Source of the DNA: Eledone cirrhosa
Lineage: Eukaryota
DNA length: 64,000 bases
Reading direction: 5' to 3'
Assembly (NCBI GenBank): GCA_964016885.1
Contig: OZ024740.1
Coordinates: 171,678,001 to 171,742,000 of the forward strand
Positions 7,558 through 62,882 of the stretch are shown in pieces. How positions within the stretch are numbered: the stretch's first letter is position 1; every line of letters begins with the position of its first letter. Both the position numbers and the translations under genes were made by a program. Under the pieces are notes generated by a model that saw nothing but the letters and a program-made list of their open reading frames with translations, did not search any database and was not told the origin of the DNA.

Positions 7558-7617
<60 letters not shown>

Positions 7618-7820
7618 TATGTACACGTACATACATATATGTATATAGACGTACAGTAGTATGTATATATATATACATACATGCACACATATATATATGT
7701 ACGTATGGATTCACCGAATATTTATTATAATGCTCGGTGTGTTTGTAAACAAACATCCCGTATTAAGCCGTAGTGTCTAGCAACCATCGTTGCTCGTTTG
7801 TTCAACACTGACAATGTAAC

Positions 7821-7862
7821 AGCCGTACTAGTTTCAAACTTATTAGCTATCGTCAGCAACGT
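7821..7862 (-). ncRNA. Type I hammerhead ribozyme (inverted monomer)
   Basis: Minus strand reads ACGUUG-CUGACGA-U-AGCU-AAUA-AGUU-U-GAAACUAGUA-CGGC; helix I is weaker than in the plus-strand copies. Confidence 0.7.
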
Positions 7863-8407
7863 ATACCTTCCTGCCAGATTGTTGAACGTATATACTTACC
7901 TTATGCATATTAACGGTTGAGTAGCCCAATTTGCATATCGAGTGGGTTAATCGGCCGGGTGCACCGACAACGATAAACGGAAAAAATGAAACGAAATTTC
8001 GTTCCCCACTCTTAGTACAGCTGTTACTTTGTCAGTGTTGAACAAACGAGCAACGAAGGTTGCTAGACACTACGGCTTAATACGGGATGTTTGTTTAGAA
8101 ACACACCGAGCATTATAATAAATGTTCGGTGAATCCATGCGTACATATATATATGTGTGCATGTATGTATATATATATATATATACATACTACTGTACGT
8201 CTGTATACATATATGTATGTACGTGTACATACTTATATTTAAGTAACAGCGGTACTAAGAGTGGAAAATGTAATTTCGTTTCATTTTTTCCGTTTATCGT
8301 TGTCGGTGCACCCGGCCGATTAACCCACTCGATATGCAAATTGGGCTACTCAACCGTTAATATGCATAAGGTAAGTATATACGTTCAACAATCTGGCAGG
8401 AAGGTAT

Positions 8408-8450
8408 ACGTTGCTGACGATAGCTAATAAGCTTGAAACTAGTACAGCGT
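8408..8450 (+). ncRNA. Type I hammerhead ribozyme, unit 1
   Basis: Helix I ACGUUG/CAGCGU, core CUGACGA...GAAA, helix II AGCU-AAUA-AGCU, palindromic helix III ACUAGU; predicted cleavage after GUA at 8444. Confidence 0.85.
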
Positions 8451-8837
8451 TCCTTTGTCAGTGTTGAACAAACGAGCAACGATGGTTGCTAGACACTACG
8501 GCTTAATACGGGATGTTTGTTTACAAACACACCGAGCATTATAATAAATGTTCGGTGAATCCATACGTACATATATATATATATATATATGTGTGCATGT
8601 ATGTATATATATACACATACTACTGTACGTCTGTATACATATATGTATGTACGTGTACATACTTATATTTAAGTAACAGCCGTACTAAGAGTGGGAAATG
8701 AAATTTCGTTTCATTTTTTCCGTTTATCGTTTTCGGGGCACCCGGCCCATTAACCCACTCGATATGGAAATTGGGCTACTCAACCGTTAATATGCATAAG
8801 GTAAGTATATACGTTCAACAATCTGGCAGGAAGGTAT

Positions 8838-8880
8838 ACGTTGCTGACGATAGCTAATAAGCTTGAAACTAGTACAGCGT
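8838..8880 (+). ncRNA. Type I hammerhead ribozyme, unit 2
   Basis: Identical to 8408-8450. Confidence 0.85.
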
Positions 8881-9268
8881 TCCTTTGTCAGTGTTGAACA
8901 AACGAGCAACGATGGTTGCTAGACACTACGGCTTAATACGGGATGTTTGTTTACAAACACACCGAGCATTATAATAAATGTTCGGTGAATCCATACGTAC
9001 ATATATATATATATATATGTGTGCATGTATGTATATATATATACACATACTACTGTACGTCTGTATACATATATGTATGTACGTGTACATACTTATATTT
9101 AAGTAACAGCCGTACTAAGAGTGGGAAATGAAATTTCGTTTCATTTTTTTCCGTTTATCGTTTTCGGGGCACCCGGCCGATTAACCCACTCGATATGCAA
9201 ATTGGGCTACTCAGACGTTAATATGCATAAGGTAAGTATATACGTTCAACAATTTGGCAGGAAGGTAT

Positions 9269-9311
9269 ACGTTGCTGACGATAGCTAATAAGCTTGAAAT
9301 TAGTACAGCGT
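9269..9311 (+). ncRNA. Type I hammerhead ribozyme, unit 3
   Basis: Same motif with GAAAUUAGUA (C to U, giving a U-G pair in helix III). Confidence 0.75.
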
Positions 9312-9692
9312 TCCTTTGTCAGTGTTGAACAAACGAGCAACGATGGTTGCTAGACACTCCGGCTTAATACGGGATGTTTGTTTACAAACACACCGAGCAT
9401 TATAATAAATGTTCGGTGAATCCATACGTACATATTTATATATGTGTGCATGTATGTATATATATATACATACTACTGTACATCTGTATACATATATGTA
9501 TGTACGCGTACATAGTTATATTTAAGTAACAGCCGTACTAAGAGTGGGAAATGAAATTTCGTTTCATTTTTTTTCCGTTTATCGTTTTCGGTGCACCCGG
9601 CCCATTAACCCACTCGATATGCAAATTGGGCTACTCAGCCGTTAATATGCTTAAGGTAAGTACATACGTTCAACAATCTGGCAGGAAGGTAT

Positions 9693-9735
9693 ACGTTGCT
9701 GACGATAGCTAATAAGCTTGAAACTAGTACAGCGT
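9693..9735 (+). ncRNA. Type I hammerhead ribozyme, unit 4
   Basis: Identical to 8408-8450. Confidence 0.85.
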
Positions 9736-10114
9736 TCCTTTGTCAGTGTTGAACAAACGAGCAACGATGGTTACTAGACACTACGACTTAATACGGGATG
9801 TTTGTTTACAAACACACCGAGCATTATAATAAATGTTCGGTGAATCCATACGTACATATATATATATGTGTGCATGTATGTATATATATACACATACTAC
9901 TGTACGTCTGTATACATATATGTATGTACGTGTATATACTTATATTTAAGTAACAGCCGTACTAAGAGTGGGAAATGAAATTTCGTTTCATTTTTTCCGT
10001 TTATCGTTTTCGGGGCACCCGGCCGATTAACCCACTCGATATGCAAATTGGGCTACTCAGACGTTAATATGCATAAGGTAAGTATATACGTTCAACAATC
10101 TGGCATGAAGGTAT

Positions 10115-10157
10115 ACGTTGCTGACGATAGCTAATAAGCTTGAAACTAGTACAGCGT
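10115..10157 (+). ncRNA. Type I hammerhead ribozyme, unit 5
   Basis: Identical to 8408-8450. Confidence 0.85.
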
Positions 10158-10419
10158 TCCTTTGTCAGTGTTGAACAAACGAGCAACTATGATTGCTAGA
10201 CACTACGGCTTAATACAGGATGTTTGTTTACAAACACACCGAGCATTATAATAAATGTTCGGTGAATCCACACGTACATATATATATGTGTGCATGTATG
10301 TATATATATACATACTACTGTACATCTGTATACATATATGTATGTACGTGTACATACTTATATTTAAGTAACAGCCGTACTAAGAGTGGGAAATGAAATT
10401 TCGTTTCATTTTTTCCGTT

Positions 10420-10496
<77 letters not shown>

Positions 10497-15087: not shown

Positions 15088-15837
15088 TAGTAACCTCTAC
15101 TTAACAAAGTAGACCCCTTTAGAATGTAAATTTAATTTTGTTTATTCGCCGAGAGTGGCTATGTGTATGTTGCACTTATTTTTTGATCTTTCGAATTGTA
15201 TTACATTTTGTTTCTTATACAAAAAAAACAAAAACAAAAAAAAACCTTACCACTATAAGTGAGATAGTCATTCATGTTTGCTATGGTAAAGGCTGCTTTC
15301 TGTCATGGCTGACCATGGGTTTGGAGCTAAAAAGTCCTTTTCTAGAGCGTAAGATTGGGAATTGGAAAATGTGTTTCTTTTCAAAGATCATCAGTTGCTC
15401 ATGAATGCAAGATTCTCTCTCCACATCATTGATGTTGCTCAAGGGATAAGCTGATGCAAATTGGCACCAGTGACGTCATAGGTGAATGCAAAGGGGCGAA
15501 AGAGATACCTCAAGGCTTCCTGTCCGAGAGATAAATGTTATAGAAAAATATAGTAGCATCGTCGCACGCATTTCTCGCCTATGTATCACGGAATTTCCTT
15601 ATAGTAAAAACAATTATTATTTTCGAAAGTAGTAATTGTTTTTACTATAACGAAATCCCACAACACTTACATTTATGTATCAACTGTGCTAGGGCGAGAA
15701 ATAAAATTCTAATTTTACTTTTAGTTCTCGGCACGGTCAGCCGTAACACGCTCGGTATGCAAATGAGGGTACTCAGCCGTTGTGTACTTAAGAAAATACT
15801 ATATATTTTCAACCGTTCAACAGATTGGCAGATGTAT

Positions 15838-15880
15838 ATAGTCCTGATGAAGGGTAATGACCCAGAAACATGTTGATTGT
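15838..15880 (+). ncRNA. Type I hammerhead ribozyme in a divergent relative of the 425-bp unit
   Basis: Helix I AUAGUC/GAUUGU, CUGAUGA, helix II GGGU-AAUG-ACCC, GAAA, palindromic ACAUGU; cleavage triplet GUU ends at 15874. Confidence 0.8.
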
Positions 15881-16116
15881 TCCTCAATGCCAGAGTTGAA
15901 CAAAAGGATGACAATTTGTCATCGGCATGGCACAGCTTTAATCGGACCGTTTGTTTACAAACGAATCGAATATTATTATTAATGTTCGATATAACCCATA
16001 CGTATATGTATGTATGTGTGTATGTATATATATATATATATATGTGTGTGTGTGCGTGTATGTATATATATATAAATATGTGTGTGTGTCTATGTGTACG
16101 TATGCATACTTACATT

Positions 16117-16269
<153 letters not shown>

Positions 16270-18896: not shown

Positions 18897-18939
18897 GTCA
18901 AAGTTCTTTCGTCACACATTCTGTGACCTCTTCAGTGAC
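18897..18939 (-). ncRNA. Minimal hammerhead motif
   Basis: GUCA-CUGAAGA-G-GUCAC-loop-GUGAC-GAAAGAACUU-UGAC; helix I is only 4 bp and helix III is very weak. Confidence 0.55.
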
Positions 18940-19059
18940 TGGGATTCTTTTCTTTGTTTTTGTGCCTCTCCTTTGTTCTGTCCTACGCCATTTTGTTTCT
19001 GAGAAACAAAATGGCGTAGGACAGAACAAAGGAGAGTTACAAAAACAAAAACAAATCTA

Positions 19060-20377: not shown

Positions 20378-23300
20378 TTACAGACACATACTCAGAGTAG
20401 GCCCATTCACTCGGGCTATACTTGCTTCTCTCACCCATCTTTCAACAAAATGCTGGGAAGAGAGCACTTCCCTCTCTACCCCGATTTTCCTTTTCAAATG
20501 AAATTTGAAAAAGTTAATCAGGGCATCACCGAAGAGGTAAGTGCTCGTCTTCAGCCCTTTCAAACGTGTCCACCATACTATCTCTTTCGCCATGGCCACC
20601 AGACAGATAAAAACTGCCTGCTCTTCCCGGCTAAAGGAGGAGGGCGGGGCAATCCTCACGATGGAGTCAGCTGATAGCTGGATCCGTCCTACACGTGACA
20701 GCAGGTGTTCGACATAAACCCACAAGTCAGCAATGCTCGGACACTGGACGAGTACGTGCAGAACGGTTTCGTCGCCCTGCGCGCATCTCGGACATGCCCG
20801 GTTGACGGCACCTCCATGCTTGTAGAGTTTATCCCGAACTGGCAAAGCTCCTCGGTAGCACTGCCAGGCCAGGGATTACTGGAAGTTGTCCATAGGCCCC
20901 GGCCCGAAAGTCCTTCCGAAGAGATTGGCTAGTTGATTTTCGTCGACACCTAGAGTTTCTCCAAGTACGTCGTCGCTCTTCCCCTCCACTAATCCTCTAT
21001 AGAACGCCAAGGTGGAGTTTCCACCGATCACATTGCCCGATTGGTCGAGGGCTGTGAGCGCCTGAAGACATTCCAGTCTCCAAGCGCTCCCTCTCGGTCT
21101 TCGCTTGACCCAGGACTGCAGCTCCGTCAAGGAAACGAGCTGGGGAAAGACGTGTCTAGCAAACGGCGACCACACCTGATCACCGTCGAGGAAGAGGTGG
21201 AGATGTCGTAGCCTGAGCGCGTGTCTGCGCATCATCAGCCACGGCATGCCCAGCCCTCCACGTAGCGTGTGTTGACAGCAGATGGACCGCCTGACCATCG
21301 GAGCGCGTCCCTTCCACAAAAAGCGAAAGAGCAAACGCTCCAGCGCAGTCAGGCGGGGCTTAGGACAAGGTACGACAGTCAGGCGGTAGTAGATGACGGA
21401 CGCGATGTACGCGTTAGCCACCTCCGCTCGACCTTTCAGGGATAGCTTCCTCTCGGCCCATTTCTGGGTGAGAGAAGCCACCCTGCTCGTCACCTCGTCC
21501 CAGTTTTTGTCCGTCTGGAGGTCCGGACCGAACCAGACCCCTAGCAATTTAACCGGTCCGTCCGTCCAGCGTCCGACGACGCTGTTGGACGGCATGGACC
21601 TGCCTGTCCAGGTGCCGAGCTGCAGGCCCACTGACTTTTCCTGGTTGATCATTGCTCCTGTCACCGCTTCATATTCTCTTAGTGTAGTTCCGATCGCCTC
21701 GATGTGTTTAGCGTTCGACACCACTACGGTGACATCGTCCGCATATGCTGACACGGATCTTCCGCATCCTAGTTCGCGTGGGACGCCCCTCAACGTCTCC
21801 AGTTTGTGCAGTAATGGCTCGAGAGTCAATACGTACAAGAGGGACGAGAGGGGACATCCTTGGCGGACCGAGCGCATGATGTTGAACGGTTCCGAAAGGT
21901 GACCGTTCACTCTCACCACAGAGCAGATGTCGCTGTGCATGGCAGCGATCCAGCCTCTGAAGAGGGGCCCAAAGCCAGCCTCCCTCAGGACTGCCGCTAG
22001 GTAACGATGGTCGACACTATCGAAAGCTTTCGACTCATCTAAATTGATCAAGGACCCATCTGTGCCAGGTTCCCTAGCTACCCTCTCTACGATGTATCGC
22101 ATGAATTGGAGGTTGTCGTGGATGGATCTGTCGGGAATTGCGCACGTCTGCGCCTCTCCCACCAGACCACCAACGACAAGCGCCAACCTCTTTGCTAGCA
22201 CCTTGGCCAAAATCTTGAACTCTGTGTTTAACAGAGTTATGGGCCTGAAATTATCTATGTTATCCCCCTTTTTCGGATCCTTTCTCAGCAGCGCCACAGC
22301 TTTTCGGCTCACAGAGCTGGGAATTCTCCCGTTCTGTTGCCAGTTGCAGTAGACCTCCGCCAAGAGGCCTCCGAACAAGTCTGGCATCTGTACGTAAAGT
22401 TCATAGGGCTGACCATCCAAACCAGGTGATTTACCCCTTGTGCAGCCAGTCATTGCCTCCCGTACTTCAGCGGCTGTTATCGGCTTTTCGCAACACTCCG
22501 CCTCAGTGGCCGAGAGCCGCGGCAGTCCGTCGAGGTAGACACTAAAGTCCATCCCTCGATTCGGCCCGCCGCTGCCCCCAAACAGCTGGGCGAAGTGTCG
22601 CTGGAAAGCTCTACACATTTGCCCGAGATCGAGTAGCATGCGCCCGTCGTGGTCCACCAAAGACCGGATCATGGCTTTGTTGCCACGATGCGCCTCTGCC
22701 ACTCGGGCCCATTGAACGGCTTTCGTCCCCTCGTGTCTGAGAGCACGCACCCTAGCTCTGACAACGCAGCCTTCGTGCTTTGCATTGAAGAATTGGTCAA
22801 GGGCCAATTTCGCCGCAAGTACATCGGTCGCGATGCCTTTGCTAAGCGCCTCGTCTAATTTTCTAACTAGTTCTCCCTCTGCTCTATTTTTCTCTATTGC
22901 TAAAACCTTACTAAACCTAATGGATTCTATTCTAATCGCTCTTTTCAGAGCAAACCACCACTTGTTGTTGACGATGGCCTCCGTCAACGCCCGCTTAAAT
23001 AGTTCGCTAATCCGGTCTCTGTAGGCCTTGCGCGCTGGTAAGGACGCGTTTAGCTTCCAGTAGCCGGGTCCTCGTCTATGAAGCCTATCTAAGTCAAGAA
23101 CAAAGATCACGAATTTGTGGTCCGTGTAGCTGACTATCTTGAATTGTGGACAGCCTATGCTAGACCTATCTATTTCCCTACAAAATACTCTATCTAGATA
23201 TGATCTGGATGACCCTATGCGATTTGTCCAAGTCCACATTGGCACATTCGGGAAATCCAATCGGTACCTGTCAGACAGTTCAAAACGCCTGAGCAGGTTG

Positions 23301-23782
23301 GTGAGGCTCTTGCACCCTCCACCCTATCCGCTAATCCCACACAGTCCCAGCGTGCATCTAAGATCCCGTCCCAGTCGCCCACTAACACTAAAGAGCGGAA
23401 CGTTCCAAGAAAGGTCTCCAGACGCCGGAAGAAATCAGGCCGCCCTGCTCCTGTCGGGGCATAGACGGCCACTAGCCCAAAAGCTTGCCCGTCTCCAGCC
23501 CCACCAACTTACCTTCTGGGTCCAGGAAGATGGCCCGTATGGCGAGATCCAAACCTCTCCGATAAAGCACAGCAACTTCTCCCCCCGATCCAGGACGGCT
23601 GGGAGATGCGTAGACATCGTAGCCGCCGAAGATCGGTGCGAAGGTCCGTGCTTTGGAGATTCTGGTCTCGCTGATGGCCACTACATCTATGTTTAGTGAC
23701 CGGAGTCGTTGAGCAGGTGGCCCTGCTTCCATGACGACCCAAAGCCACGCGCATTTATGCTGCCTATTCTGAGTGAGGTCAT
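20378..23782 (-). pseudogene. Tx1 ORF2: AP-endonuclease + reverse transcriptase + CxxC...HxxxxC
   Basis: Starts MTSLRIGSINARG; motifs VYAP, VGDW, LDRVF..TDH, GYWKLN, KSPGLDG, QGCPLS, YADD and CPRC..ETVLHVLVQC. Broken by frameshifts near 23700 and 23300 and stops at 23472 and 20876. Confidence 0.92.
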
Positions 23783-25721
23783 CTTGAAATGGAGTGGAAA
23801 AGATGGGAAAGACCATCTCGTAGAGGAAGGATAGTTTCTCCATCCTTTTCACTGCTTGTGGCCTCCTCCGGAAGGATATCCTTATAAATCCCCCTGGAGA
23901 GTGCTTGTCGGAAGTCTCCGATGTCTTTGGGGAATTTTTGTTTTAGTGTCGTGTACGTTTTCTGTGTGATGCGAGTGATTTGAATGTGTGGAGGTGGTGT
24001 GAACTTTTGGGTTGTTGTGTAGTCTTTTCCTGTGATCCTGGTGTTGTGTTGGATGTAGTGTAATAATTGGTTGTTGTTCAAATTTAATGCTGTGTAGGGT
24101 GTATCGTTTTGGTTGTTTTGTTTTGTTTGCGTTTGTTGTGGGTTTGTTTCTGTTTCGCTTTTTGGTGACTTTTGTGGTGTTGGTGATGGTGGTGTTGGGG
24201 TTAATGACGGTGATGGTGTTGGTGCTTGTGGTGATGGGGTTGGTGATGCTGGTGTGGATGGTGGCATATCTGTCCTAACTTTTTTGTTTGATAGTTTATT
24301 TGTTTCCCTCATTATTTTGTTTTTGGAGGGGGAGGGAAAGGAATTTTTTCTTTTTTGGTTTCTTTTTTCTTTTTTCCTGATACAGTTTCCCACTCCTGGT
24401 CGTCACGATCTGTCTCCAGTTACGATAGGTCGGGGAGTGGAAAATCCTCCACAGGTGTTGGTTTTGGTTGTGGCGTGGTGGATGGTGTAGGCGCTGGTGC
24501 TAGTTCTGGCGCGTTGGGTGGTGGTGGTGTTGGTTTTGCTACTGTTGCTGGGGTTGTTGCTGTTACAGTTGCTTCTGTTGTTGCTGCTACAGTTGTTGCT
24601 GCCATCTCTGTTGCTGGTGGTGTTGATGGTTGAGTCACAGGGGTGGGTAAGAGAGGTGGCCTCAAACTTTTAGCCTGAGGGCAGAAAGCCCTTAGGTGGG
24701 TTCCTTCACCACAAACGACACACCTAGTTCTTCTGCCCTCGACGATTACGGTGAGGTGGCTGCCGTCAATGAGGTCTATTACCTCTGGGATCTCCTCAAT
24801 GCTTTTTTGGTCCGCTTGGATCAGGAGCTCCATCCCAGATCCGGACCAGTTCTCCTGCTTTTCTTTCGCTATTTCGATTATCTTGGTGTTGGCTTCGATG
24901 CCGGCGAGGACGGCAGCTATTAGCCAGGGAATTTCGATGGCCGGTGGAACGTGGGTCACCCTGATCTTTACGAGACTCTGGCCACAATAGCTTGGGACGA
25001 GTGTGAAGTCGTCACTTCTTAATGGGGCCATGGAGTGTTCTCTAGCCTCCTGTGGTGTTTCAAAGAACACGTCCACGGTTCCATATTTCTGCCCACCTCT
25101 GATGTGGGTTTTTTTTGCCCACACATGTCCCAAAGCTTTTTGTATTTGGGACTCGGATGGCCGTTCCACTCGGCGCGATTTTATGTTAATTGTTCGATAA
25201 GACACGGTGCATAGGCGCCGATGCTCCATTTTATTAGGTGGTGGCTGGGGGGGGGGGATGACCCTGTATCCATCTTTCTTTACCATTTTTTTGGCTTCTT
25301 CTAATTCCTCCTGAGACCTGAAATGCTTCGCACTGTTTTCCTACTCTGGCAAAACTCAGGGTGGTTTTCTTAATTTCATTGTTGTTGTTGTTATCGTTAT
25401 TTTTGTTATTGTTAATTTTAGTTTCAGTTGTGGTGGTGGTGGCGTCAGTGGTGTTCGGTGTGGAAGAGTTCATTTTGGTTGAATTCATTTCGATATCACG
25501 AGTTAATTTATTTTTTCTTTTGTTTCTGTTGTCGCGGTGGTGGTGGCGGCTTCAACACCTGCAGTCATTGGTAATGGCGGGAAATGAATGTCTGCCTGAG
25601 ACAAATTTAAAATATTGCTACTGCTTATATTTTTAGTGTTGGCAAACGTAGTAATATTTACAATGGTGGTGTCGGTGTGAGGTGTTAGTTTATGAGGAAG
25701 GAATGACTCTGAGTCGTCCAT
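23779..25721 (-). pseudogene. Tx1 ORF1 (gag-like, zinc knuckle CVVCGEGTHLRAFC, Pro/Thr-rich tail)
   Basis: Fragments 25503-25721, 25234-25488, 24420-25286 and 23779-24393; homologous to ORF1 of copy 2. Confidence 0.8.
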
Positions 25722-25935
25722 GATTTTTCAAAGAAAAATTTTTGTTTGATAATTATAAAAGTTAAAATTTTGGGCTCAAGGACCCAATCTTTTTGGGTAT
25801 CCTTTTCAGATAACAATGTATGTGCACTGATATACAGTTAACAATAACAATTTTCCATAAATAGCAATTTTAAACAACTGAAAATAACAAACCTTTGTGG
25901 AGCTCACGATGATACGATTTACTACGTAGGTCGCC

Positions 25936-25979
<44 letters not shown>

Positions 25980-26295
25980 TTTCTTAATTGGCCACAAGGG
26001 CTGACATCAAGAAAAACATTACAGACGGCACAGGACGGTACAGGATGGTACAGGACGGTACGATGTGGGTTTTGTGCGTGTAAATATTTTTATTATTTAT
26101 ATAAGAAAAGGAAAAAAAAAAAGGACATAGAAACATATATATATATAAACAATAAAAATGAAAATTGAAACAATGAAAAATTCCCCAATAGGGGGGAAAC
26201 CTCCGAGGGTTACTCGTGGCGAAAACCACACAAAAGACCACGGCTACCCTGACCATCAGGGCAAGCGCCCTCTCTTAATTTTTCCATTTCTCAAA

Positions 26296-29200
26296 CTACA
26301 GACGTATATTCAGAGCGGTCCCGTTCACTCGGACCATTCTCGCTACATTCACCCACCTTTCAACAAACTTGCTAGAAAGCAGCACTTGCCTCTCCATCCT
26401 GATTTTCCTCTTCAAGTGAAACTTGAAAAAGTTAATTAGGGATTCGCCGAAGAGGAAAGTGTCTGTCTTTAACCCTTTTAACCTTGTCCACCACACAATC
26501 TCTTTCGCCATGGCCACCAGGCAGATGAAAACCGCCTGCCCTTCCTCCTCGAAGGAAGACGGCGAGACCATCTGCACAATGGACTCAGTCGACAACCGGA
26601 TCAGTCCCACACGCGACAGCAACTGTTCGACATAGATCCACAAGTCAGCAATGCTCGGGCACTGAACGAGTGCGTGCACGACGGTTTCGTCGCTCTGCGC
26701 GCATCTCGAACAGGCTCGGCTGACGGCACTTCCGTGCCTGTAGAGCTTATCTCGCACCGGCAACGCTCCTCGGTAGCACTCCCAGGCCAGGGATTTTTGG
26801 AAGTTATCCATAGGCCCCGGGCTGAAAGTTCTCCGGAAGAGAGCAAACAGCTGATCTTCTTCGACGCCCAGGATCTCTCCAAGAATGTCGTCGCTCTTCC
26901 CCTCCACTAGTCCTCTATAGAACGCCGAGGTGGATGTTCCACCGATACTGGTGCCCAGCTGGGAGAGGGAAGTGAGCGCCTGGAGACATTCCAGTTTCCA
27001 AGCGCTATCCCTCGGTCTTTTTCTGACCCAGGACTGCAGCTCCGCCAAGGAGACGAGCTGTGGGAAAACGTGCCTGGCGAACGGCGACCACACCTGTTCA
27101 CCATCAAGGAAGCACAAGAGATGTCGCAGCCTCAGCGCATGTTTGCGCATCATCAGCCATGGCATGCCCAGTCCTCCACGCAACGGGTGTTGACAGCAGA
27201 TGGATCGTCTGACCATGGGAGCGCCTTCCTTCCACAAAAAGCGGAAGAGGAGGCGCTCCATTTTGGTGAGAGTTGGGCTGGAGCAAGGAACGACGGTGAG
27301 GCGGTAGCAGATGACGGATGCGATGTTCGCATTCGCCACCTCCGCCCGGTCTTTCAGGGACAGCTTCCTCTCAGCCCATTTCTGGGTGAGGGAGGCCACC
27401 CTGCTCGTCACCTCGTTCCAGTTTTTCTCCATCTGGAGGTCCGGTCCGAACCAGACCCCGAGCAATTTAACCGGTTCGTCCGTCCAACGCCCCACGACGC
27501 TGTCGGACGGCATGGACTTGCCTCTCCAGGTGCCGAGCTGCAAGCCCACCGACTTTTCCTGGTTTATCTTTGTTCCTGTCACCGCTTCGTATTCCTTGAG
27601 AGCAGTGCCGAGCATCTGGACGTGCTGGTGCTCAACACCACCACGGTGACGTCGTCAGCGTAAGCCGACTCTGGATTTCCCGCATCCTAGTTCGCGTGGG
27701 ACGTCCCTCATCGCCCCCAGTTTGTGCAGTAACGTCTCGAGAGCAAATACGTGCAAGAGGGACGAGAGGGGACAACCCTGGCCGACTGAGCGCATGATGC
27801 TGAACGGCTGCGACAGGTGACTGTTCACCCTCACAACTGAGCAGATGTCGCTGTACATTGCTGCTATCCAACCCCTGAAAACGGGCCCGAAACCGGCTGC
27901 CTCGAGGACCACCGCCAGGTACCGATGGTCGACCCTATCGAATGCTTTGGATTGATCCAAGTTGATCAGGGCCCCACCCTTGCCAGATTCCTTAACCACC
28001 CTCTCTATGATGTATCGCATGAGGTGGAGGTTGTCGTGTATGGATCTGTTCGGAATGGCGCATGTCTGCGCCTCTCCCGCCAGACCCTTGACGACAAGCG
28101 TCAACCTCGTTGCTAACACCTTGGCCAAAATCTTGAACTCTGCGTTTAGCAGGGTTATAGGCCTGAAATTATCGATAACATCCCCCTTGTTCGGGTCTTT
28201 ACTCAGCAGCGCCACTGCTCCCCGGCTCACAAAACTGGGAATGCTCCCGTTCTGCTGCCAGTTGCAGTAGACGTCTGCCAAGAGGTCACCGAACAAGTCT
28301 GGCACAAATGGATAAAGCTCGTAGGGCAGACCATCCAAACCTGGCAATTTACCCCTTGTGCAGTTAGCCATCGCTTCCCGTATTTCACCGGCTGTTATTG
28401 GCTTTTCGCAACACTGTGCTGCGGTCGTTGAGAGCCGAGGCAGTCCGTCGAGGTATGCACTGAAGTCCATGCCCCGACCCGGGCTGCCGCCGCTCCCGAA
28501 CAGTTCAGCAAAGTGCTGCTGAAAAGCTTCACACATCCGCTCGGGTTCGAGCATCACGCACCCGTTTTGGTCAGACAAAGACCGAATTGCGGCTATGTTG
28601 ACATGTCGCGTCTCTGCCACCCGGGCCTATTGGACGGCTTTTGTCCCCTCGTGTTTCAGAGCACGCGCTCTAGCTCTGACAATACAGCCTTCGTGTTTTG
28701 CGTTGAAGAATTGGTCGAGTGCCAATCACGCCACAAGCACGTCGGTTGCGATGCCCGTCCTAAACGCCTCTTCTAGCTTTCTGACTAGCTCTCCCTCTAC
28801 TCTATTTTCCTCTATCACTACTCCTTTGCTAAACCTAATCGACTCTACTTTAATTGCCCTTTTCAGGGCGAACCACCACCTGTTGTTGACGACCGCTCCC
28901 GTCAACGCCCGCTTAACTAATACGCTAATCCGGTCTCTGTAGGCTTTGCGCGCCGGGAAAGACGCGTTCAGCTTCCAGTAACCGGGCCCTTGTCTATGAA
29001 GTCGGTCTATGTCGATCTCACTGATCACAAATTTGTGGTCTGTGTAGTCGACTATTTTAAATAGTGGACAACTTATACTAGCCTTATCTAGTTCTCTGCA
29101 GAATACCCTATCGAGATACGATCTGGATGACCCGATGCGGTTTGTCCATGTCCACATTGGCACATTCGGTTGATCCAGTCGATACCTGTCAGACAGTTCA

Positions 29201-29670
29201 AAACGTCTGAGCAGGTTGGTGAGGCTCTTGCACCCTCCTCCCCTATCCACTAACCCCACACGATCCCAGCGTGCATCCAAGATACCGTTCCAGTCGCCCA
29301 CTAACACTAAAGAGCGGGACGTTGCAAGAAGGTCTCTAGACGTCTGAAGAAATCTGGCCGTCCTGCCCCTGTTGGGGCGTAGACGGCTACTAGCCTGAAA
29401 GCATTGCCTTCGCTGCCGGTCACGTCCAGTACCACCGACTTACCTTCTGGGTCTAGGAAGATGGCCCGTATCGCGAGATCCAAGCCTCTCCGAAAAAGGA
29501 CGGCAACACCTCCCCCCGATCCTGGACGACTGGGAGATGCGTATACAGCGTAGCCGCCGAAGATCGGTGCGAAGGCTTGTGCTTCGGATATTCTGATTTC
29601 ACTGATGGCCACCACATCTATGTTTAGTGACCTGAGGTCGTTGAGCAGGTGACCCTGCTTCCAAGATGAC
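26296..29670 (-). pseudogene. Tx1 copy 2 ORF2 (APE-RT), frameshifted, start region deleted
   Basis: Fragments 29307-29738, 28726-29307, 27655-28620 and 26296-27615 carry VGDWN, LDRVF, GYWKLN, DQSKAFDRVDH, QGCPLS and CSRC..HALVQC. Confidence 0.9.
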
Positions 29671-29699
29671 CCCTCTTGGTAACCGACCCTCTGAAGTCT

Positions 29700-31690
29700 C
29701 CAACTGCGTTGGGGAATTTTTGTTTTAAAGGTTTGCACTGTTCTATTGAGATTTCGATGATGCTTATGTTTGTCGGGAGAGTTCTTGGTGTTGGTGGGGT
29801 GTAGTAGTTTTTTTTCTGTGATGCCTGTGTGCTGCTTTATATATTGTATGAGTTCTTTTTTTTTACATGTTTATGGCTGTGTACCTTTTGAGGGGAGGGG
29901 GGATTTTGTTGCTGTTTTCTTATTGTTGCTGTTTGGTGTGTGTGTTTTGTTTTGTTTGAGTTGTTGCTGTTTTTGGTGATGCTGGTGGTGGTGTGGTTGT
30001 TGTTGTCAGTGGTGCTTGTGGTGGTGATGGTGGTGGTGTTGCTGCAAGTTTCCTCGCTGCCTTTACCCCTCTTTGTATGCCTTCGCTTTTGGAGGGTGAA
30101 TCTAAGGGTTTTTTTTTTTTTGTGGCAGACCGTGTGCCACTTCACTCCGGCCTCAAACTCCATGTCGGATTCTGTGGCGTCTGGGAGGGGTATGTGCTCC
30201 ACGGCTGTTGGTGGTAGTAGTGGAGCCCTCTTCGGCAATTTTGTTGCTGGTGTAGCCGCCACTGATGCTGCTGCTTTAGTTGTCCGTGGCCTTGGTACGG
30301 GTGCTACGGACGTTGCCCTCCTACTCACCGTGGAAGGGGCTTCACGTTTGTTGCCTGCCCTGCTCTTGGTTGCAGCGGACCAGGTATTGGAAGGAGAAGG
30401 ACCTTCTTCGCTGTGTTTTGCGGGCAAAAGACCCTGAGGAGACCCTTCGACCCACAGAGATAACATTTTGGTCGTCTTCCTTCTACACTTATAGGGAGTT
30501 AGAGTCCTTCCTCGATGTCTATGATATCGGGGATAGCGTCGATACATTCCTGGTCAGTTTGTATAAGCATTTGCATTCCTATACCTGACCAGTTCTCTCT
30601 CCCTATTTTTTCTACTTGCAGCATGGTCGTCCTGTTCTCGATTCCAGCAAGGACAGACGGGGCCAGCCAAGGTATGGGCACGTCGGGTGGGACCTGGGTC
30701 ACTTTGACCCTCACAATTTTCTGCCCGCAGTAGGAGGGCACCAATACTATCTCCTAACTCTTTAGGGTTTCCAAAGAGTGAGACTTTGCTTCCTGGGTGG
30801 TGGCGAAAAGTACGTCTACTGTAGCGTACTTTCTGCCTCGGGTGATGTGGGTTTTGTGTGCCCAGACGCACCCCCAAGGCCTTTTGGATTTGAGCCTCTG
30901 TGGCTCTCTCCACCCGATGTGAGATTTTGCTTACGGTGCGGTAAGTCGCCGTCCGTAGCTGCTGGTCCTTGAAAAAATCGGGTGGAGGTTTCAGGGAGAC
31001 TCTATTTGCGCTTCTTGTCACCATGGCCCTTGCGACTGCCATCTCCTCCTCTGTGACTAACACTGTCTCGATATTTCGGGCGACACCTGCAAAAGAAGTG
31101 GTCCCTTTTTCAGCAGCACCACTATTGCTGCCGCTACTGGTCTTACTGGTGGTGCTGAGATCGCTATTACAGGTATCGGTGTCATTATTGTTGTTTTCGT
31201 TGGTACAGTTGTTGGTGTTGTTGTTGTTGTTGTTTTCATTGATACTGTTGCTGTTGTTACTGTTATTGTGGCTGTTGTTATTATTGTTGTTTTTGTTGAT
31301 ACTGTTCCTACTATTATTGTTGTTGTGGCTGTTGTTATTGTCATTGTTATTGTCGTTCTCGACCTTACCGCTGTTATTTTTCTTATTCTCGTTCTCGACC
31401 TTACCGCTGTTATTTTTGTTATTGTCGTTCTCGACTTTACCGCTGTTATTTTTGTTGTTGTTATTGATGATGTTGTTGTTGGTGTTGTTGTTGGTGTTAT
31501 TGTTGTTTGTGTTAGAAATATTTGTTAATTTTAAATCTGTAACAATCTTCTTTTCCTTTGTAATATTTTCGTTTATATTTACCTCCGCTGGAACGCTGTC
31601 TTGTTGACATGCTGATAAAGTATCCCTCTCTCTGTGTTGTCTGACAGCGCTCTCTCTCTTTCTTGTGTTATCCATGTTGAAATTTTTCAA
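29700..31690 (-). pseudogene. Tx1 copy 2 ORF1 with Asn-rich N-terminus
   Basis: Fragments 30554-31690, 30499-30744 and 29837-30547. VPSYCGQ..V.VT.VPP....PWL matches copy 1, and NNSGKVEN repeats are present. Confidence 0.75.
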
Positions 31691-31896
31691 AAAAATATTT
31701 TTTCACAAATACGAATACGACACCCCGTAAAGGGGTGCCGTATTATTTACTAGTGAACCCCTGTATTAGGTGGGTCACTTCTAAACTTTTATCAAATTTA
31801 AAACTTGAATAAAAGGTTTAGAACGGTTGAAAACGAGGTAAAACGTTGAAAAAAATCGGAGGCGATAAGAAGCGTGGCTTCACCAACAACAACAAC

Positions 31897-31970
<74 letters not shown>

Positions 31971-31971
<1 letters not shown>

Positions 31972-34900
31972 CAACTGCTGATGTTGGAGGAGGAAGAAGA
32001 AGAAGGAAAGGGGCCAGAACCAACTGGACGAAAGAATTGAATAGAACTGTTATGCAATGTTACCTGAAAAGTAACCCCAAGGAGAGGGGCTACAGGAGAC
32101 GGATGCATAACATCTGGAACGAGATTGGTCTATTTAAATTAGATGAACAAAAATTGGCCGGGCAGGCTCGGGTAATAAGAACTAATGGGTGGATAAGCGA
32201 GCTGGAACTGGAGGAACTGAGCAGAGAGAATGGCTTGGAGATGGCGGGTGTAGTATGCCAGACAAGCGAGCCAGTGGGAAATGAAGGTGAAGAGGTCGAG
32301 AGAACGGAGGAACCACCCGAAGCAGACAATGATCTGAATACTGAGATAAATAATACCTGGAACAGAGATACGGCCACCGAGGAGATGAATGCTGACGGGC
32401 TAGGACAAGATTCGGTTGACATCCTAAATTTAGTGGTAGATGAATTGAACAATGATAGTGGGAGACCTATGAACCTAAGATTTGTAGACAGGAAAAAGTT
32501 AAAAGAAACAACAGCTAAGGTAAACAAAGTCATCCCATACCTTGAGGCGAGGAGCCTTCACCAGTGCAACAATATCCTCAAAGCAACAGCAAATACGGTG
32601 AGGAAACTACTTGGTATAAAAGCGAGAGGAAACAACAGACAAGAAAGAGCAGAGCCGTGGTGGAAGAAACGACTGAGTGGTCAAATCGGGGAAATGAGAA
32701 ATGACATAGGAAAGCTTGAGTCACTACTGAATGGGACACTAAAAAACATAGGCACTAAAAATAGACTGGAAATAAAGTACAAAACTAGGAGGAAAAAGCT
32801 AAATATTATCATAGAGGAACTGAAGCAACGCATTGTAGCAAAGAATGCCAAAATCAGGCGATACGAGAACAGAGTCAGTCAGTATAAACAGAACCGCATG
32901 TTCGACAACAACCAGAAGATGCTGTTTGGACAGCTTGAGGGGAAAGAAAGAGACAACGACTTGATCCCTGGGGCGGAGCAAACTAAAACATTCTGGAGAG
33001 GAATATGGGAGCAGGATGTTAGACATAATGTCCAGGCAGGGTGGATTGAGACAGTACAGAGGGAGATCGGTGAGCAGGCACACCAACAAACTGATTTGAG
33101 TATCACAGTTGAAACTCTTAAGGGGCAGGCCAAAAAACTAACCAACTGGAAATCACCAGGCCCAGATGGTGTGCAGGGGTATTGGATTAAAAATTTAACA
33201 TCCCTCCACCCGAAGCTGACGGCCATGTTCAATGACTGCTTGGTGTCGGGTGAGGTGCCAGAGTGGTTGACAAAAGGTACCACAGTTCTGATAATGAAAG
33301 ACCGAATCAAGGGTAATGATGTTACCAACTATAGACCTATCACATGTCTGTCCGTAATGTGGAAACTGTTGACGAGCATTGTGTCTGAGGAAATCTACCA
33401 TCACCTCCACACAAACAACTTGTTACCGGACGAACAGAAAGGATGCCGAAAGAAGTCACGTGGTACAAAAAGACCAGTTACTTATTGATAAGATGGTAAT
33501 GGGGAATTGCAGGAGGAGACACACTGATCTTGCCATGGGATGGATAGACTACAGAAAGGCATTTGACATGGTGCCTCATTCTTGGATCACCAAAAGCCTG
33601 GAGATCTTCAGGGTGTCAGATAACATCAGACAGTTGCTGGGCAGGAGTATGGGGTCCTGGGAGACAGAGTTGACATCAACTGGAGTATCCTTGGGAAGCG
33701 TGAAGATCAAGAGAGGTATCTTCCAGGGAGATAGCCTGTCCCTTCTGTTGTTTGTCCTTGCCCTGATGCCCTTGACCACTATGCTGCGAAAAGTGAGAGC
33801 AGGATACAAGTTGGGAAAGGGAGAGCTTACCATCAATCACCTCCTCTTCATGGACAATCTTAAGCTCTTCGTGAAAAGTGAGAAGGAGTTGGATGTGCTT
33901 GTTGACACTGTCCGTATTTTCAGCAGTGATATATGTATGCAGTTTGGTATTAGTAAATGTGGAGTCATTGTGATGAGGAGGGGTAGGTTGAGCAGAAGTA
34001 ACGGGATCCAGATACCAACAGGTGAGATGATAAAGGAAATTGACTCTGAGGAAGGATACAAGTATTTGGGCGTTCTGGAGGCTGATGGCATCTAGAACAA
34101 AAAAATGAAGGAATTGTTAAGAACTGAATACATTCGGAGAGTAAGGAGCGTATTGAAGTCACATCTGAACAGCAGAAATGCCATAAGCGCAGTAAATTCC
34201 CGAGCTGTGTCTATTATTAGGTACAGTGCGGGAATTCTGAGATGGAATGTTGCTGAACAAAAAGAAATGGATAGGAAGACTAGGAAGCTATTGACTATCT
34301 ACAACATGTTCCACAAGAGGAGTGATGTCGATAGACTCTACCTAAGGAGATATGAGGGTGGAAGAGGTCTTATCAGCATAGAGGACTGTGTTAAGATGGA
34401 GAAAAATAACCTATACAAATACGTGACCTATAGTAAGGAGCCAATGCTCAGAACTGTACTGAAGGAGGGGACAGTAGGCCAGGGGATGTCCAAGGAGGAA
34501 ATAACATCAAGGAGGAAGAGCAGCCTTAAGGGAAAATCCCTTCATAGTACCTTCTTTGAGAAAACTGAATTTAGAGATCCACAGACATGGAACTGGTTGA
34601 GAAGAGGAGACCTCAAAAAGGCTACAGAAGGAATGCTAATGGCTGCGCAGGAGCAGGCCCTCAAAACGAAGTGGTTGAAGCACCATATTTACAAGGAGGA
34701 GGCTAGCCCACTGTGCAGGAGCTGTGGAGAGAGAGAGGAGACTGTGGCTCACATTGTGTCCGAGTGTAAACACCTAGCCCAGACCCACTATAAGGGCTGG
34801 AGACACGATGTGATGGGCAGGGTGATCCACTGGCACCTGTGCAAAGTAAACAATTTACCACATTCTGAGAAATGGTATGAGCATAGGCCAGAGGCGGTGA

Positions 34901-35360
34901 TGGAGAACAATCAGGTGAAGGTGCTGTGGGATTTTAGGATACAGACGGACAAAAAACTGGAACACAATAGACCTGACCTGGTGGTTGTGGACAAAGAAAA
35001 AAGATCGTGTCTGATTGTGGATGTGGCCTGCCCTTTCGACACGAGAGTGCAAGAGAAGGAGAGGGAGAAAATTAACCGATACCAGGACCTAAAGTGGGAG
35101 GTGAAAAGGATTTGGAACTGCCATGAAGTCAAAGTGATCCCGATTGTCATAGGCGCACTGGGGACTATCTCCAAAAGTTTCCAGGGATGGTTAAAGAAAA
35201 TCGGCCCCTTCACGCTTTTTGGAACGCTTCAAAAGGCATGCTTGCTTGGAACGGCAAGAACCCTCCGATACGTCCTGAATATCTGAGGCTGCAGGTAGTG
35301 GCTTGATATTCATTCCAACGGACTTTCCAGTTAACCAACATCAATGACTGAGATTCAAGG
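31971..35360 (+). mobile_element. R4/Dong-clade RLE non-LTR retrotransposon, copy A (near full length, inactivated)
   Basis: Single ORF with N-terminal WTKELNRTVMQCY, RT, CCHC finger and RLE; (AAT)n on both sides. Confidence 0.92.
32037..35286 (+). pseudogene. R4/Dong ORF copy A (RT + restriction-like endonuclease)
   Basis: Frameshift near 33470, catalytic FMDD changed to FMDN, premature stop at 34093-34095. RLE motifs CRSC..ETVAHIVSEC, RHD and RPDLVVVD..DVACPFD..K..RY are present. Confidence 0.92.
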
Positions 35361-35369
35361 AATAACAAC

Positions 35370-35435
<66 letters not shown>

Positions 35436-38022: not shown

Positions 38023-38034
38023 AATAACAATAAC

Positions 38035-38088
<54 letters not shown>

Positions 38089-38090
<2 letters not shown>

Positions 38091-39754
38091 GCGTGAAGAT
38101 CAAGAGAGGTATCTTCCAGGGAGATAGTCTGTCCCCTCTGTTGTTTGTCCTTGCTCTGATGCCCCTAACCAGAGTACTGCGAAAAGTGAGAGCAGGATAC
38201 AGGTTTGGAAAGGGAGGGCTTACCATCAATCACCTCCTCTTCATGGACGATCTTAAGCTCTTCGGGAAGAGTGAGAAGGAGTTGGATGTGCTGGTTTACA
38301 CTGTCCGTATTTTCAGCAATGATATATGTATGCAATTTGGTATTAGTAAGTGTGGAGTCATTGTGATGAAGAGAGGTAAGTTGAGCAGAAGTAACGGAAT
38401 CCAGGTACCAACAGGTGAGATGATAAAGGAAATTGACTCTGAAGAAGGATACAAGTATTTGGGTGTTCTGGAGGCTGATGGCATCAAGAACAAAAAAAAT
38501 GAAGGAATTGATAAGAACTGAATACATTCGGAGAGTAAGGAGCGTATTAAAGTCACATCTGAACAGTAGGAATGCCATAAGTGCAGTAAATTCCCGAGCT
38601 GTACCTATTATTAGGTACAGTGCGGGAATTCCGAGATGGAATGTTGCTGAACAAAAAGAAATGGATAGGAAGACTAGGAAGCTATTGACTATCTACAACA
38701 TGTTCCACAAGAGGAGTGATGTCGATAGACTCTACCTAAGGAGATCTGAAGGTGGAAGCGGTCTTATCAGCATAGAGGACTGTGTTCAGATGGAGAAAAA
38801 CAACCTACACAAATACGTGACTGATAGTAAGGAGCCAATGTTCAGAACTGTACTGAAGGAGGGGGCAATAGGCCAGGGGATGTCCAAGGAGGAAATAACA
38901 TCAAGGAGAAAGAGCAGCCTTCAGGAAAAATCCCTTCATAGTACCTTCTTTGAGAAAACTGAATTTAGAGATCCACAGACATGGAACTGGTTGAAAAGAG
39001 GAGACCTTAAAAAGGCTACAGAAGGAATGCTAATGGCTGCGCAGGAGCAGGCCCTCAAAACGAAGTGGTTAAAACACCATATTTATAAGGAGGAGGCTAG
39101 CCCACTGTGCAGGATCTGTGGAGAGAGAGAGGAGACTGTGGCTCACATTGTATCCGAGTGTAAACACCTAGCCCAGACTCACTATAAGGGCTGGAGACAT
39201 GATGTGATGGGCAGGGTGATCCACTGGCACCTATGCAAAGTAAACAATTTACCACATTCTGAGAAGTGGTATGAGCATAAGCCAGAGTCAGTGATAGAAA
39301 ACGATCAGGTGAAGGTGCTGTGGGATTTTAGGATACAGACGGACAAGAAACTGGAACACAATAGACCTGACCTGGTGGTTGTGGACAAAGAAAAAAGATC
39401 GTGCCTGATTGTGGATGTGGCCTGCCCATTCGACACGAGAGTGCAAGAGAAGGAGAGGGAGAAAATTAACCGATACCAGGACTTAAAGTGGGAGGTAAAA
39501 AGGATTTGGAACTGCCATGAAGTCAAAGTGATCCCGATTGTCATAGGCGCACTAGGGACTATCTCAATAAGTTTCCAGAGATGGTTAAAGAAAATTGGCC
39601 CCTTCACGCTTTTTGGAACGCTTCAAAAGGCATGCTTGCTGGGAACAGCAAGAACCCTCCGATACGTCCTGAATATCTGAGGCTGCAGGTAGTGGCTTGA
39701 TATTCATTTCAACAAACTTTCCAGTTAACTAACATCAATGACTGAGACTCAAAG
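38089..39754 (+). mobile_element. R4/Dong retrotransposon copy C, 5'-truncated within RT, frameshifted
   Basis: Starts at SVKIKRGIFQGD, has a frameshift in the A-run near 38495 and stops at 39680; more substitutions relative to A and B. Confidence 0.92.
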
Positions 39755-42436: not shown

Positions 42437-43306
<870 letters not shown>

Positions 43307-43332
43307 TATTCAGCCATGTAGAGCGAAAATGT

Positions 43333-43403
<71 letters not shown>

Positions 43404-52852: not shown

Positions 52853-52970
52853 ATTTAATATAGAAATGACTTCTACGGGACTAGACCTGTTTCATTCGAA
52901 GGAAAGCTTTGCTGATGATTTTCTTCGAATGAAACAGTTCTACTCCTGCAGAAGCCATTTCTATATTAAA
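52853..52970. repeat. Hairpin element with degenerate HHR
   Basis: Plus strand CUGAUGA-UUUUCUUCGAAU-GAAACAG..CUGCA-GAAGC; the inverted arm retains GAAACAGG..CCCGUA-GAAG. Confidence 0.5.
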
Positions 52971-52974
52971 CATA

Positions 52975-53039
<65 letters not shown>

Positions 53040-62772: not shown

Positions 62773-62882
62773 TAATCCAATACAAACTGTTACATGATTG
62801 GTTCGTCGGTGACGAAACCAGTACCCTCCTGGGTCAGCTTGGTGAGAAGGATTGTTAGAAACCTAACAGGACAAAAACAATA

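What the first reader, a model, noticed from the sequence alone, without database searches (positions are those of the whole stretch)
15690..16005. Divergent homolog of the 425-bp unit shows compensatory covariation across a larger RNA structure
Seen: the element is colinear with the array unit, but paired regions differ while still pairing. Helix I is ACGUUG/CAGCGU vs AUAGUC/GAUUGU. Helix II is AGCU/AGCU vs GGGU/ACCC with a conserved AAUR loop. Helix III is ACUAGU vs ACAUGU. Downstream hairpins are AGCAAC..GUUGCU vs AUGACA..UGUCAU and CCGAGCAUU..AAUGUUCGG vs UCGAAUAUU..AAUGUUCGA. The outer stem GUUCAAC..UGGCA/UGYCA..GUUGAAC and UUUGUUUACAAAC are conserved, and a third relative lies at 43125-43306. 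Inference: selection acts on a multi-hairpin RNA well beyond the ribozyme, possibly RT-recruitment signals.
Basis: partly seen in the sequence, partly recalled or inferred. Interest (0 to 1): 0.8.

Follow-up and report, generated by a model that had tools for sequence, protein, structure and literature searches.

The report
Folded ribozyme retroelement with snRNA-like promoter
This is one old copy of a very abundant non-coding repeat family whose four diverged lineages keep the same base-paired shape across the whole unit, carry a hammerhead-ribozyme motif and a copy of the host's U6-gene promoter motif, and end like Penelope retrotransposons, so it is likely a self-transcribing, self-cutting RNA parasite that borrows a Penelope enzyme to spread.

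Summary
Observation confirmed with corrections. Window 15663-16119 is one decayed monomer (lineage E) of a hammerhead-bearing repeat superfamily: 29,445 pattern hits against 4 control hits. The 430-bp array is lineage B; 43125-43337 is only an inverted 3' fragment of lineage C; a fourth lineage F was found. Lineages are 43-70% identical, yet pairing outside the ribozyme is kept: E vs B, 75 of 76 hand-registered pairs, 9 double and 9 wobble changes (0 of 20,000 null runs). A fully automated test gave weaker support. Copies end at two fixed sites on (TA)n with inverted 5' copies, the same signature as an autonomous Penelope element here, but no sampled autonomous element shares sequence. New: all four lineages carry the host's U6 upstream block plus TATA box (spacing 3-5 nt short), and the first oligo-T lies at the insertion end. 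Verdict: a non-LTR retrozyme variant, likely Penelope-mobilised, likely with its own snRNA-type promoter; cleavage, circles and promoter activity are untested.

The parts
15663..16119 (+). One full monomer of lineage E, from end-site 1 to end-site 1, followed by (TA)n; decayed copy
15664..15679 (+). P9 small hairpin; homologous to end-site 1 (repeated at about 16103-16119 where the copy ends)
15682..15689 (+). P4 strand a (long-range helix; one pair broken by a private change at 15683)
15692..15698 (+). Pa 5' strand (pairs with 15747-15753)
15698..15720 (+). Pb hairpin; its 3' arm is the first run of four or more T after the predicted start and marks end-site 2
15729..15743 (+). Pc hairpin
15747..15753 (+). 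Pa 3' strand
15757..15767 (+). Octamer-like block, 11 of 11 identical to the -76 block of host U6 gene L269
15773..15776 (+). TCAG block, at the distance from TATA seen in host U1/U2 promoters (weaker match)
15792..15810 (+). Pe hairpin containing the TATA box (15800-15805); predicted transcription start near 15830
15815..15834 (+). 5' arm of the extended helix I (outer stem)
15838..15880 (+). Type I hammerhead motif: helix I 15838-15843/15875-15880, core 15844-15850, helix II 15852-15863 flanked by an A.A mismatch, GAAA 15865-15868, palindromic helix III 15868-15873, predicted cut after 15874
15882..15901 (+). 3' arm of the extended helix I
15907..15923 (+). P3 hairpin
15930..15937 (+). P4 strand b
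15949..15989 (+). P6 (15949-15962) and P7 (15966-15989) hairpins
16000..16102 (+). Microsatellite-like internal linker; a long hairpin without expansion in lineage F, absent in C
8013..10422 (+). Lineage B tandem array, 5.7 units, five hammerhead cores (8414, 8844, 9275, 9699, 10121); ends at end-site 2
7612..8029 (-). Inverted lineage B copy at the 5' side of the array; ends at end-site 1 on (TA)n
43125..43337 (.). Palindrome of two inverted 3' ends of lineage C (site 1 left, site 2 right), no hammerhead, (TA)n on both sides

Best explanation
The element is a decayed copy of a protein-less, tandem-forming repeat with a hammerhead motif and base pairing conserved across the whole unit, and it likely works as a non-LTR retrozyme: likely transcribed from its own snRNA-type promoter, likely cut between neighbouring hammerheads into unit-length (possibly circular) RNA, and likely copied into (TA)n sites by a Penelope-type reverse transcriptase. 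Steps. (1) Shown: a host-U6-like block plus TATA in every lineage; inferred: it drives transcription from just upstream of the hammerhead. (2) Inferred: because this promoter lies upstream of its own start, a new copy can only inherit it from a read-through multimer or circle, which explains tandem units and why helices that straddle the promoter (Pa, Pc, Pd, Pe, outer stem) are under selection. (3) Inferred from known hammerheads: palindromic helix III lets two units cleave as a dimer. (4) Shown: copies end at two fixed sites flanking P4/Pa/Pb, on (TA)n, often with an inverted 5' copy; inferred: these are the two internal RT start sites known for Penelope elements. The partner element is not identified.
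For: Copy number 29,445 vs 4 control. Core motifs invariant across lineages 43-70% identical. Pairing outside the core: Bm vs E 75 of 76 pairs kept, 28 changed sides, 9 double changes, 0 of 20,000 null runs; without the three re-registered helices 57 of 58, 0 of 20,000; P4+Pa alone P 1e-4 to 2.5e-5. Tool count on a sequence-only alignment of 18 copies: 22 of 77 pairs with double changes, covariation 0.208 vs 0.04-0.07 slid; P4+Pa 8 of 15. 15% simulated neutral change removes most excess stability (-1.5 and -2.7 per 100 nt) whereas all 9 groups keep -6.6 to -11.1, sense stronger than antisense in 9 of 9. 9 of 10 one-sided changes give G.U. Ends at two sites: B1 50 of 58, B2 15 of 19, E 11 of 12, C 37 of 43, F 12 of 12; autonomous Neptune-like element 69 of 69 ends at two sites 41 nt apart (not deduplicated); site 2 also seen as loose (AT)n ends in unassembled contigs. 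U6 module 21-27 bits in all four lineages (one E copy 17.8), 0 of 1000 shuffles, true U6 leave-one-out 17-21; top 7 sites in the window and 8 of 8 sites of 20 bits or more in 0.97 Mb are family copies.
Against: Automated test with MFE pairs and sequence-only alignment: total retention significant for B->E (2-14 of 3000) but neither the double-change count nor the changed-site test reached significance (240-898 of 3000), and F->E gave nothing; the strong result uses helices I chose. 'Further pair types' did not beat shuffles. All 9 E/Bm double changes are double transitions, the easiest to get by chance. Block-to-TATA spacing is 42-45 vs 46-48 in U6, and the 41-48 range was set after looking; the matrix rests on 3 promoters; little similarity between block and TATA (3 of 18 comparisons P<0.02). 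Absence of T runs in the predicted transcript is not significant per lineage (P 0.2-0.57). 5' ends do not cluster at the predicted start or cut site. B, E and C have an A.A or U.U mismatch beside helix II and E has a GUU triplet, which may impair cleavage; 8 of 9 frog retrozymes tested did not cleave (10.64898/2026.07.22.740005). No sampled autonomous element shares sequence.
Confidence: 0.75

Rival explanations
1. Same retrozyme, same selected fold, but no promoter of its own: the octamer-like block is kept for an RNA-level or enhancer role and copies are transcribed by read-through from host genes, as the current model for animal retrozymes holds.
For: Spacing is 3-5 nt shorter than in U6; lineage B1 lost 8 nt between TATA and hammerhead yet is young and abundant; block and TATA both lie inside predicted helices; no 5'-end cluster; review statement in PMC7761336.
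Against: The block is the longest invariant run outside and inside the core (9 columns) while its pairing partner varies or mismatches; lineage C holds two perfect copies in 7 of 11 copies; 9-11 of 11 identity to the host U6 block; TCAG-TATA distance matches U1/U2.
Confidence: 0.3
2. The unit is the orphaned pseudo-LTR of an autonomous Penelope family not sampled here, mobilised as linear read-through RNA; the hammerhead is dispensable and no circles form.
For: Two-site ends, inversions and (TA)n targets are Penelope features (PMC8557442); hammerhead cleavage was not needed for insertion in vitro (PMC11167929); an autonomous family here has the same U.U-flanked, palindromic hammerhead design.
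Against: No family unit was found joined to a Penelope ORF in the loci held; arrays of ORF-less units recur in B, C and F; the core stayed invariant over 50% divergence.
Confidence: 0.2
3. Hairpins are kept by DNA-level processes (template switching, conversion between arms, single-stranded DNA intermediates as in Helitron-like elements), not by selection on RNA.
For: Family is rich in local palindromes and inversions; most double changes are transitions; antisense strand also folds better than shuffles.
Against: Long-range P4 and Pa covary; 9 of 10 single changes are G.U on the hammerhead strand; sense beats antisense in 9 of 9 groups; intact hammerhead core.
Confidence: 0.06
4. The shared pairing is inherited from a structured ancestor and has simply not decayed yet.
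For: Changed-site null in the automated test was not exceeded.
Against: Simulated 15-35% neutral change destroys the excess stability; lineages differ by 30-57%; helix-level nulls.
Confidence: 0.03

Closest known systems
Metazoan non-LTR retrozymes (PMC7229834; seen: part 2 of 6 of the text, Discussion, passages)
   Same: Tandem non-coding units of a few hundred bp, low GC, one type I hammerhead per unit, highly self-paired predicted RNA, co-occurrence with Penelope elements; described in a mussel (350-390 bp).
   Different: Units here are 420-500 bp with an internal microsatellite linker; hammerhead is atypical (mismatch beside helix II); whole-unit covariation, two-site ends and a promoter-like module were not found in the passages read; expression and cleavage were shown there, not here.
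Retrozymes as non-autonomous Penelope derivatives (bioRxiv 10.64898/2026.07.22.740005; seen: parts 1-3 of 5, abstract to Discussion)
   Same: Monomers, dimers and multimers; proposed Penelope mobilisation.
   Different: Their evidence is pseudo-LTR homology and co-occurrence in vertebrates; here homology to an autonomous element was not found, but insertion ends match the Penelope signature.
Penelope-like elements: tail, inverted 5' copy, microsatellite targets, internal RT start (PMC8557442 passages; PMC11167929 parts 1-2 of 4; PMC4209133 parts 1-2 of 4)
   Same: Two alternative 3' ends with the longer one at one end only, inverted 5' copy, (TA)n targets, minimal hammerhead with palindromic helix III.
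   Different: No ORF; tails of about 35-72 nt rather than 30-40; conserved G10.1-C11.1 directly beside the core only in lineage F.
Newt satellite 2 and schistosome hammerhead satellite with internal promoters (cited in PMC2220036, passage seen; the primary paper PMC308520 was not held; the octamer-plus-PSE detail is recalled)
   Same: Hammerhead-bearing tandem repeat with its own snRNA-type (newt, Pol II) or Pol III (schistosome) promoter.
   Different: Here the module matches the host's own U6 upstream block plus TATA, with a U1/U2-like block between; activity and polymerase are untested.

Membership tests
non-LTR retrozyme | type I hammerhead motif in each unit | tested here: met
   core motifs and helices I-III in all four lineages; no Rfam model hit
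non-LTR retrozyme | short tandem units plus dispersed monomers | tested here: met
   tandems in B, F, C; no full E tandem among the E copies held (one search checked 12 loci); units 420-500 bp, upper end of the published 150-450
non-LTR retrozyme | no ORF, low GC | tested here: met
   only ORF overlapping is microsatellite read-through; GC 0.37-0.38 in the 2-kb bins
non-LTR retrozyme | self-cleavage | not testable with these tools
   needs in vitro assay
non-LTR retrozyme | expression as linear and circular RNA | not testable with these tools
   no suitable data available to lay
non-LTR retrozyme | target-site duplications, absence of PBS/PPT | not tested
   (TA)n targets hide duplications
non-autonomous Penelope derivative | two alternative 3' ends (tail) | tested here: met
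   same pattern in autonomous element
non-autonomous Penelope derivative | inverted 5'-truncated copy and microsatellite target | tested here: met
   window array and 43125-43337; many loci
non-autonomous Penelope derivative | sequence homology to the pseudo-LTR of an autonomous element | tested here: inconclusive
   none in at least six ORF families seen (outputs of 65 and 74 partly cut); sampling is a small part of 10,596 first-look GIY-YIG candidates; one 13-of-14 match at the ends is within chance range
PLE minimal hammerhead | palindromic helix III | tested here: met
   B, E, F palindromic; C has a 3-bp stem with tetraloop instead
PLE minimal hammerhead | bulged base then G10.1-C11.1 | tested here: not met
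   E and C have the bulge and G-C but an extra base before GAAA; B has U.U then A-U; F is canonical without bulge
U6-type (type 3) promoter of this host | upstream block and TATA box | tested here: met
U6-type (type 3) promoter of this host | block-to-TATA spacing 46-48 | tested here: not met
   42-45 in the four lineages
U6-type (type 3) promoter of this host | oligo-T terminator ending a T-run-free transcript | tested here: inconclusive
   first T run at site 2 (site 1 in F) in 7 of 7 units, but absence upstream has P 0.2-0.57 each
U6-type (type 3) promoter of this host | promoter activity and polymerase | not testable with these tools
   needs 5'-end mapping or reporter

The most novel reading that the evidence does not exclude
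An animal retrozyme superfamily that has captured or mimicked the host's U6/snRNA promoter and uses tandem read-through plus hammerhead cutting to carry an external promoter inside its own RNA circle, with a covarying domain (P9-P4-Pa-Pb) that sets the two start sites for a Penelope reverse transcriptase: a complete, testable life cycle for a class whose promoter and helper are stated to be unknown.
Probability: 0.35. Interest if true: 0.8.

Novelty: new variant of a known kind. Interest (0 to 1): 0.62.

Why it matters
A 2020 review states that animal retrozymes seem to have no promoter and no conserved motif pointing to their helper element (PMC7761336). This family offers both kinds of handle: a host-U6-like module conserved over about 50% divergence, and Penelope-type insertion ends tied to a covarying RNA domain. 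With young, near-identical arrays (B1, F) and young intact Penelope ORFs in the same genome, the questions of how retrozymes are transcribed and who moves them become directly testable. Precedents exist (newt, schistosome), so this extends rather than overturns the class.

Tried and rejected
Rfam: only low-complexity miRNA noise in the 150 of 223 rows shown for the window and no hammerhead family on either unit. RNA evidence: no RNA holder listed; contigs of 4 runs of unknown kind were laid and show DNA-type variation only; two of them are too shallow to use. RNAalifold on large, decayed family alignments (E, B1) gave poor folds and was not used; RNAalifold on A2 also predicted a helix at columns 280-318 that I rejected because it conflicts with single-family folds. 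Three helix registers were off by one and were redone. Two C copies (L078, L080) were dropped as chimeric before group counts; C is absent from alignment A2, so searches cover E, B and F only and C was compared by folds. Partner search: the 784-aa element has no canonical hammerhead and no homology; the 1217-aa element has a minimal hammerhead but no homology. Dimer cofold of the B core did not give the catalytic dimer as MFE; the E core gave an intermolecular helix III; uninformative. 5'-end clustering: none. Similarity to U6 beyond the 11-nt block: not robust. Families D and H lack the module. Earlier findings: nothing in 3 look-ups. Papers not held: Lunse 2017 on Penelope hammerhead variants, Coats 1994; either may already describe the mismatch variant or a similar promoter; the preprint's supplements were not seen. 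Searches for prior description listed nothing on this family; Repbase/Dfam could not be checked. The host taxon was not established.

Full report
Observation. The stretch aligns to each unit of the 8013-10422 array at 65-66% over 264 nt and is colinear. The helices quoted are present and both sequences fold better than 100 of 100 shuffles. The copy really spans 15663-16119. It belongs to a dispersed family (lineage E): 40 scored of 2743 first-look candidates, all 88-92% identical, star-like tree, about 6% from the column majority. This copy differs from the majority at 14 positions, so comparisons were made on column majorities.

Family. The array is lineage B (95-99% among 40 scored hits) with a ladder of subfamilies. 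43125-43337 is two inverted 3' ends of lineage C, whose full units do carry a hammerhead. Lineage F came from pattern searches. A pattern for the hammerhead with its upstream GGCAG gave 29,445 hits against 4 for the reversed control; most listed rows are B and a few belong to other families, so this is an order of magnitude, not a count. Pairwise identity between lineages is 43-70%.

Covariation. Three tests. (a) Automated: MFE pairs of one lineage mapped by a sequence-only alignment. Total pairs kept exceeded a neutral null for B->E (2, 13 and 14 of 3000) but the changed-site test and the double-change count did not (240-898 and 701-1223 of 3000), and F->E showed nothing, partly through misregistered loops. 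(b) Thirteen helices outside the core, chosen by hand from B folds, three re-registered for loop length: Bm vs E keeps 75 of 76 pairs with 9 double and 9 G.U changes, 0 of 20,000 null runs; without the re-registered helices 57 of 58, 0 of 20,000; P4+Pa alone P 1e-4 (B1/E), 2.5e-5 (B2/E), 1e-4 (B2/B1). The tool count on 18 natural copies gave 22 of 77 pairs with double changes, above 500 of 500 shuffles and far above slid controls; further pair types did not exceed shuffles; the tool's shuffle ignores relatedness. P4 is fully paired in E, B2, B3 and F majorities with five of eight positions changed on both sides, and forms in C folds too. (c) Alignment-free: 15% simulated neutral change cuts excess stability to -1.5 (B1) and -2.7 (F) kcal per 100 nt, 10 runs each, while up to 5 copies from each of 9 groups keep -6.6 to -11.1, stronger on the hammerhead strand in 9 of 9. 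Conclusion: pairing was maintained in source elements; individual E copies decay about evenly. R-scape was not available and four lineages give limited power.

Ends. Among loci held at that point, copies end at two homologous sites followed by (TA)n or (CA)n: B1 50 of 58, B2 15 of 19 (B1 and B2 sets overlap), E 11 of 12, C 37 of 43, F 12 of 12. Site 1 is in hairpin P9, site 2 just after Pb. The window array and the C palindrome have site 1 at the inverted end and site 2 at the direct end. A young autonomous RT plus GIY-YIG element, a fragment of which lies at 45456-46370, shows the same pattern: 69 of 69 ends at two sites 41 nt apart, not deduplicated. This is the Penelope tail, inversion and microsatellite preference (PMC8557442), which in vitro corresponds to two internal RT start sites (PMC11167929). 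No homology to the units was found in the autonomous families sampled. One family has the same unusual hammerhead design. A 13-of-14 match between old B subfamilies at site 2 and the autonomous site 1 is a weak lead; E has an equal match at an irrelevant place.

Promoter-like module. The longest run invariant across E, B and F is a 9-column block containing the octamer motif; it is present in 123 of 149 copies, twice in 7 of 11 C copies, while its pairing partner varies. Three distinct host U6 promoters carry the same 11-nt block at -76 to -78 and TATA at -30; nine distinct U1/U2 promoters carry TCAGT-like at -56 to -58 and TATA at -28 to -33; 14 of 18 U6 loci viewed lacked the block at that place and look like pseudogenes. 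With spacing 41-48 allowed, all four lineages score 21-27 bits (one E copy with a deletion 17.8), 0 of 1000 shuffles, against 17-21 for left-out true promoters; the 7 best sites in the window and all 8 sites of 20 bits or more in 0.97 Mb are family copies; unrelated hammerhead families D and H do not score. The U1/U2 module scores weakly in E, B and C (2-14 of 1000 shuffles in 7 of 8 copies, 133 in one) and not in F. Against: spacing is 42-45, not 46-48; the range was set after looking; the matrix has three sequences; the sequence between block and TATA does not match robustly. The predicted start lies 8-27 nt above the hammerhead core and the first run of four or more T falls at site 2 (site 1 in F) in 7 of 7 units, but a T-free stretch of that length has P 0.2-0.57 and 5' ends do not cluster at the start or cut site.

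Mechanism. Most likely: transcription from the unit's own snRNA-type module, read-through into the next unit, dimeric hammerhead cleavage to unit-length RNA that contains the promoter, probably circularisation, then Penelope endonuclease nicking at (TA)n and reverse transcription from site 1 or 2, giving monomers, tandems and inverted 5' copies. Shown: motifs, covariation, ends, module match. Inferred: transcription, cleavage, circles, helper. P4 can pair in either permutation, so it is not itself evidence of a circle.

Known and new. It meets the sequence-level features of non-LTR retrozymes (PMC7229834) and behaves like a non-autonomous Penelope derivative (10.64898/2026.07.22.740005). A review says animal retrozymes seem to lack promoters and helper-indicating motifs (PMC7761336), though newt and schistosome satellites have promoters (PMC2220036). 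Ten searches listed no paper on this family; two key primary papers were not held and repeat databases could not be checked. Verdict: new variant of a known kind, interest 0.62.

Noticed in passing
window 45285-46370 and downstream; L136, L138-L149: 5'-truncated, partly inverted copy of a very young Neptune-like Penelope element (784-aa RT plus GIY-YIG frame, preceded by an overlapping 455-aa frame without Pfam match; tandem period 4734); no canonical hammerhead.
   Followed up: partly
L253 (G000:C28:42015500-42025000): Second very young Penelope-type family, 1217-aa frame, tandem period 4146, minimal hammerhead in its 3' region.
   Followed up: partly
L258, L259, L260, L267, L268: Autonomous Penelope family whose hammerhead has U.U beside helix II and a palindromic helix III, the same design as lineage B.
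   Followed up: partly
window 55840-56070; L098, L152, L179, L145, L109: Separate hammerhead families D and H (about 310-bp tandems) with a long extended helix I and related 3' parts; no U6-like module.
   Followed up: partly
L269-L271, L284-L286, L299-L304, L324: Host snRNA promoters: U1 and U2 both have a TCAGT-like block near -57 and a TATA-like box near -30; U6 has an octamer-like block at -77 and TATA at -30.
   Followed up: partly
window 52880-52980 and 18900-19055: Other hammerhead-like motifs next to (TA)n or to a near-perfect inverted repeat; probably Penelope pseudo-LTR remnants. At least ten more hammerhead families were seen among loci.
   Followed up: no
L282, L283, L329, L330: U6 copies without promoter lying directly after (TA)n or TA-rich runs, possibly retrocopies at the same targets.
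   Followed up: no
window 20876-39680: Several LINE-type RT fragments (RVT_1, zf-RVT, Exo_endo_phos), partly repeated.
   Followed up: no
window 49861-50493 (-): Frame with an Ets domain (E 2e-35), probably a host exon.
   Followed up: no
window 62528-62773: 45-bp tandem repeat, 5.5 copies, 97% matches.
   Followed up: no
L255 18-772: Short tandem repeat resembling the TATA-containing Pe hairpin of lineage E.
   Followed up: no
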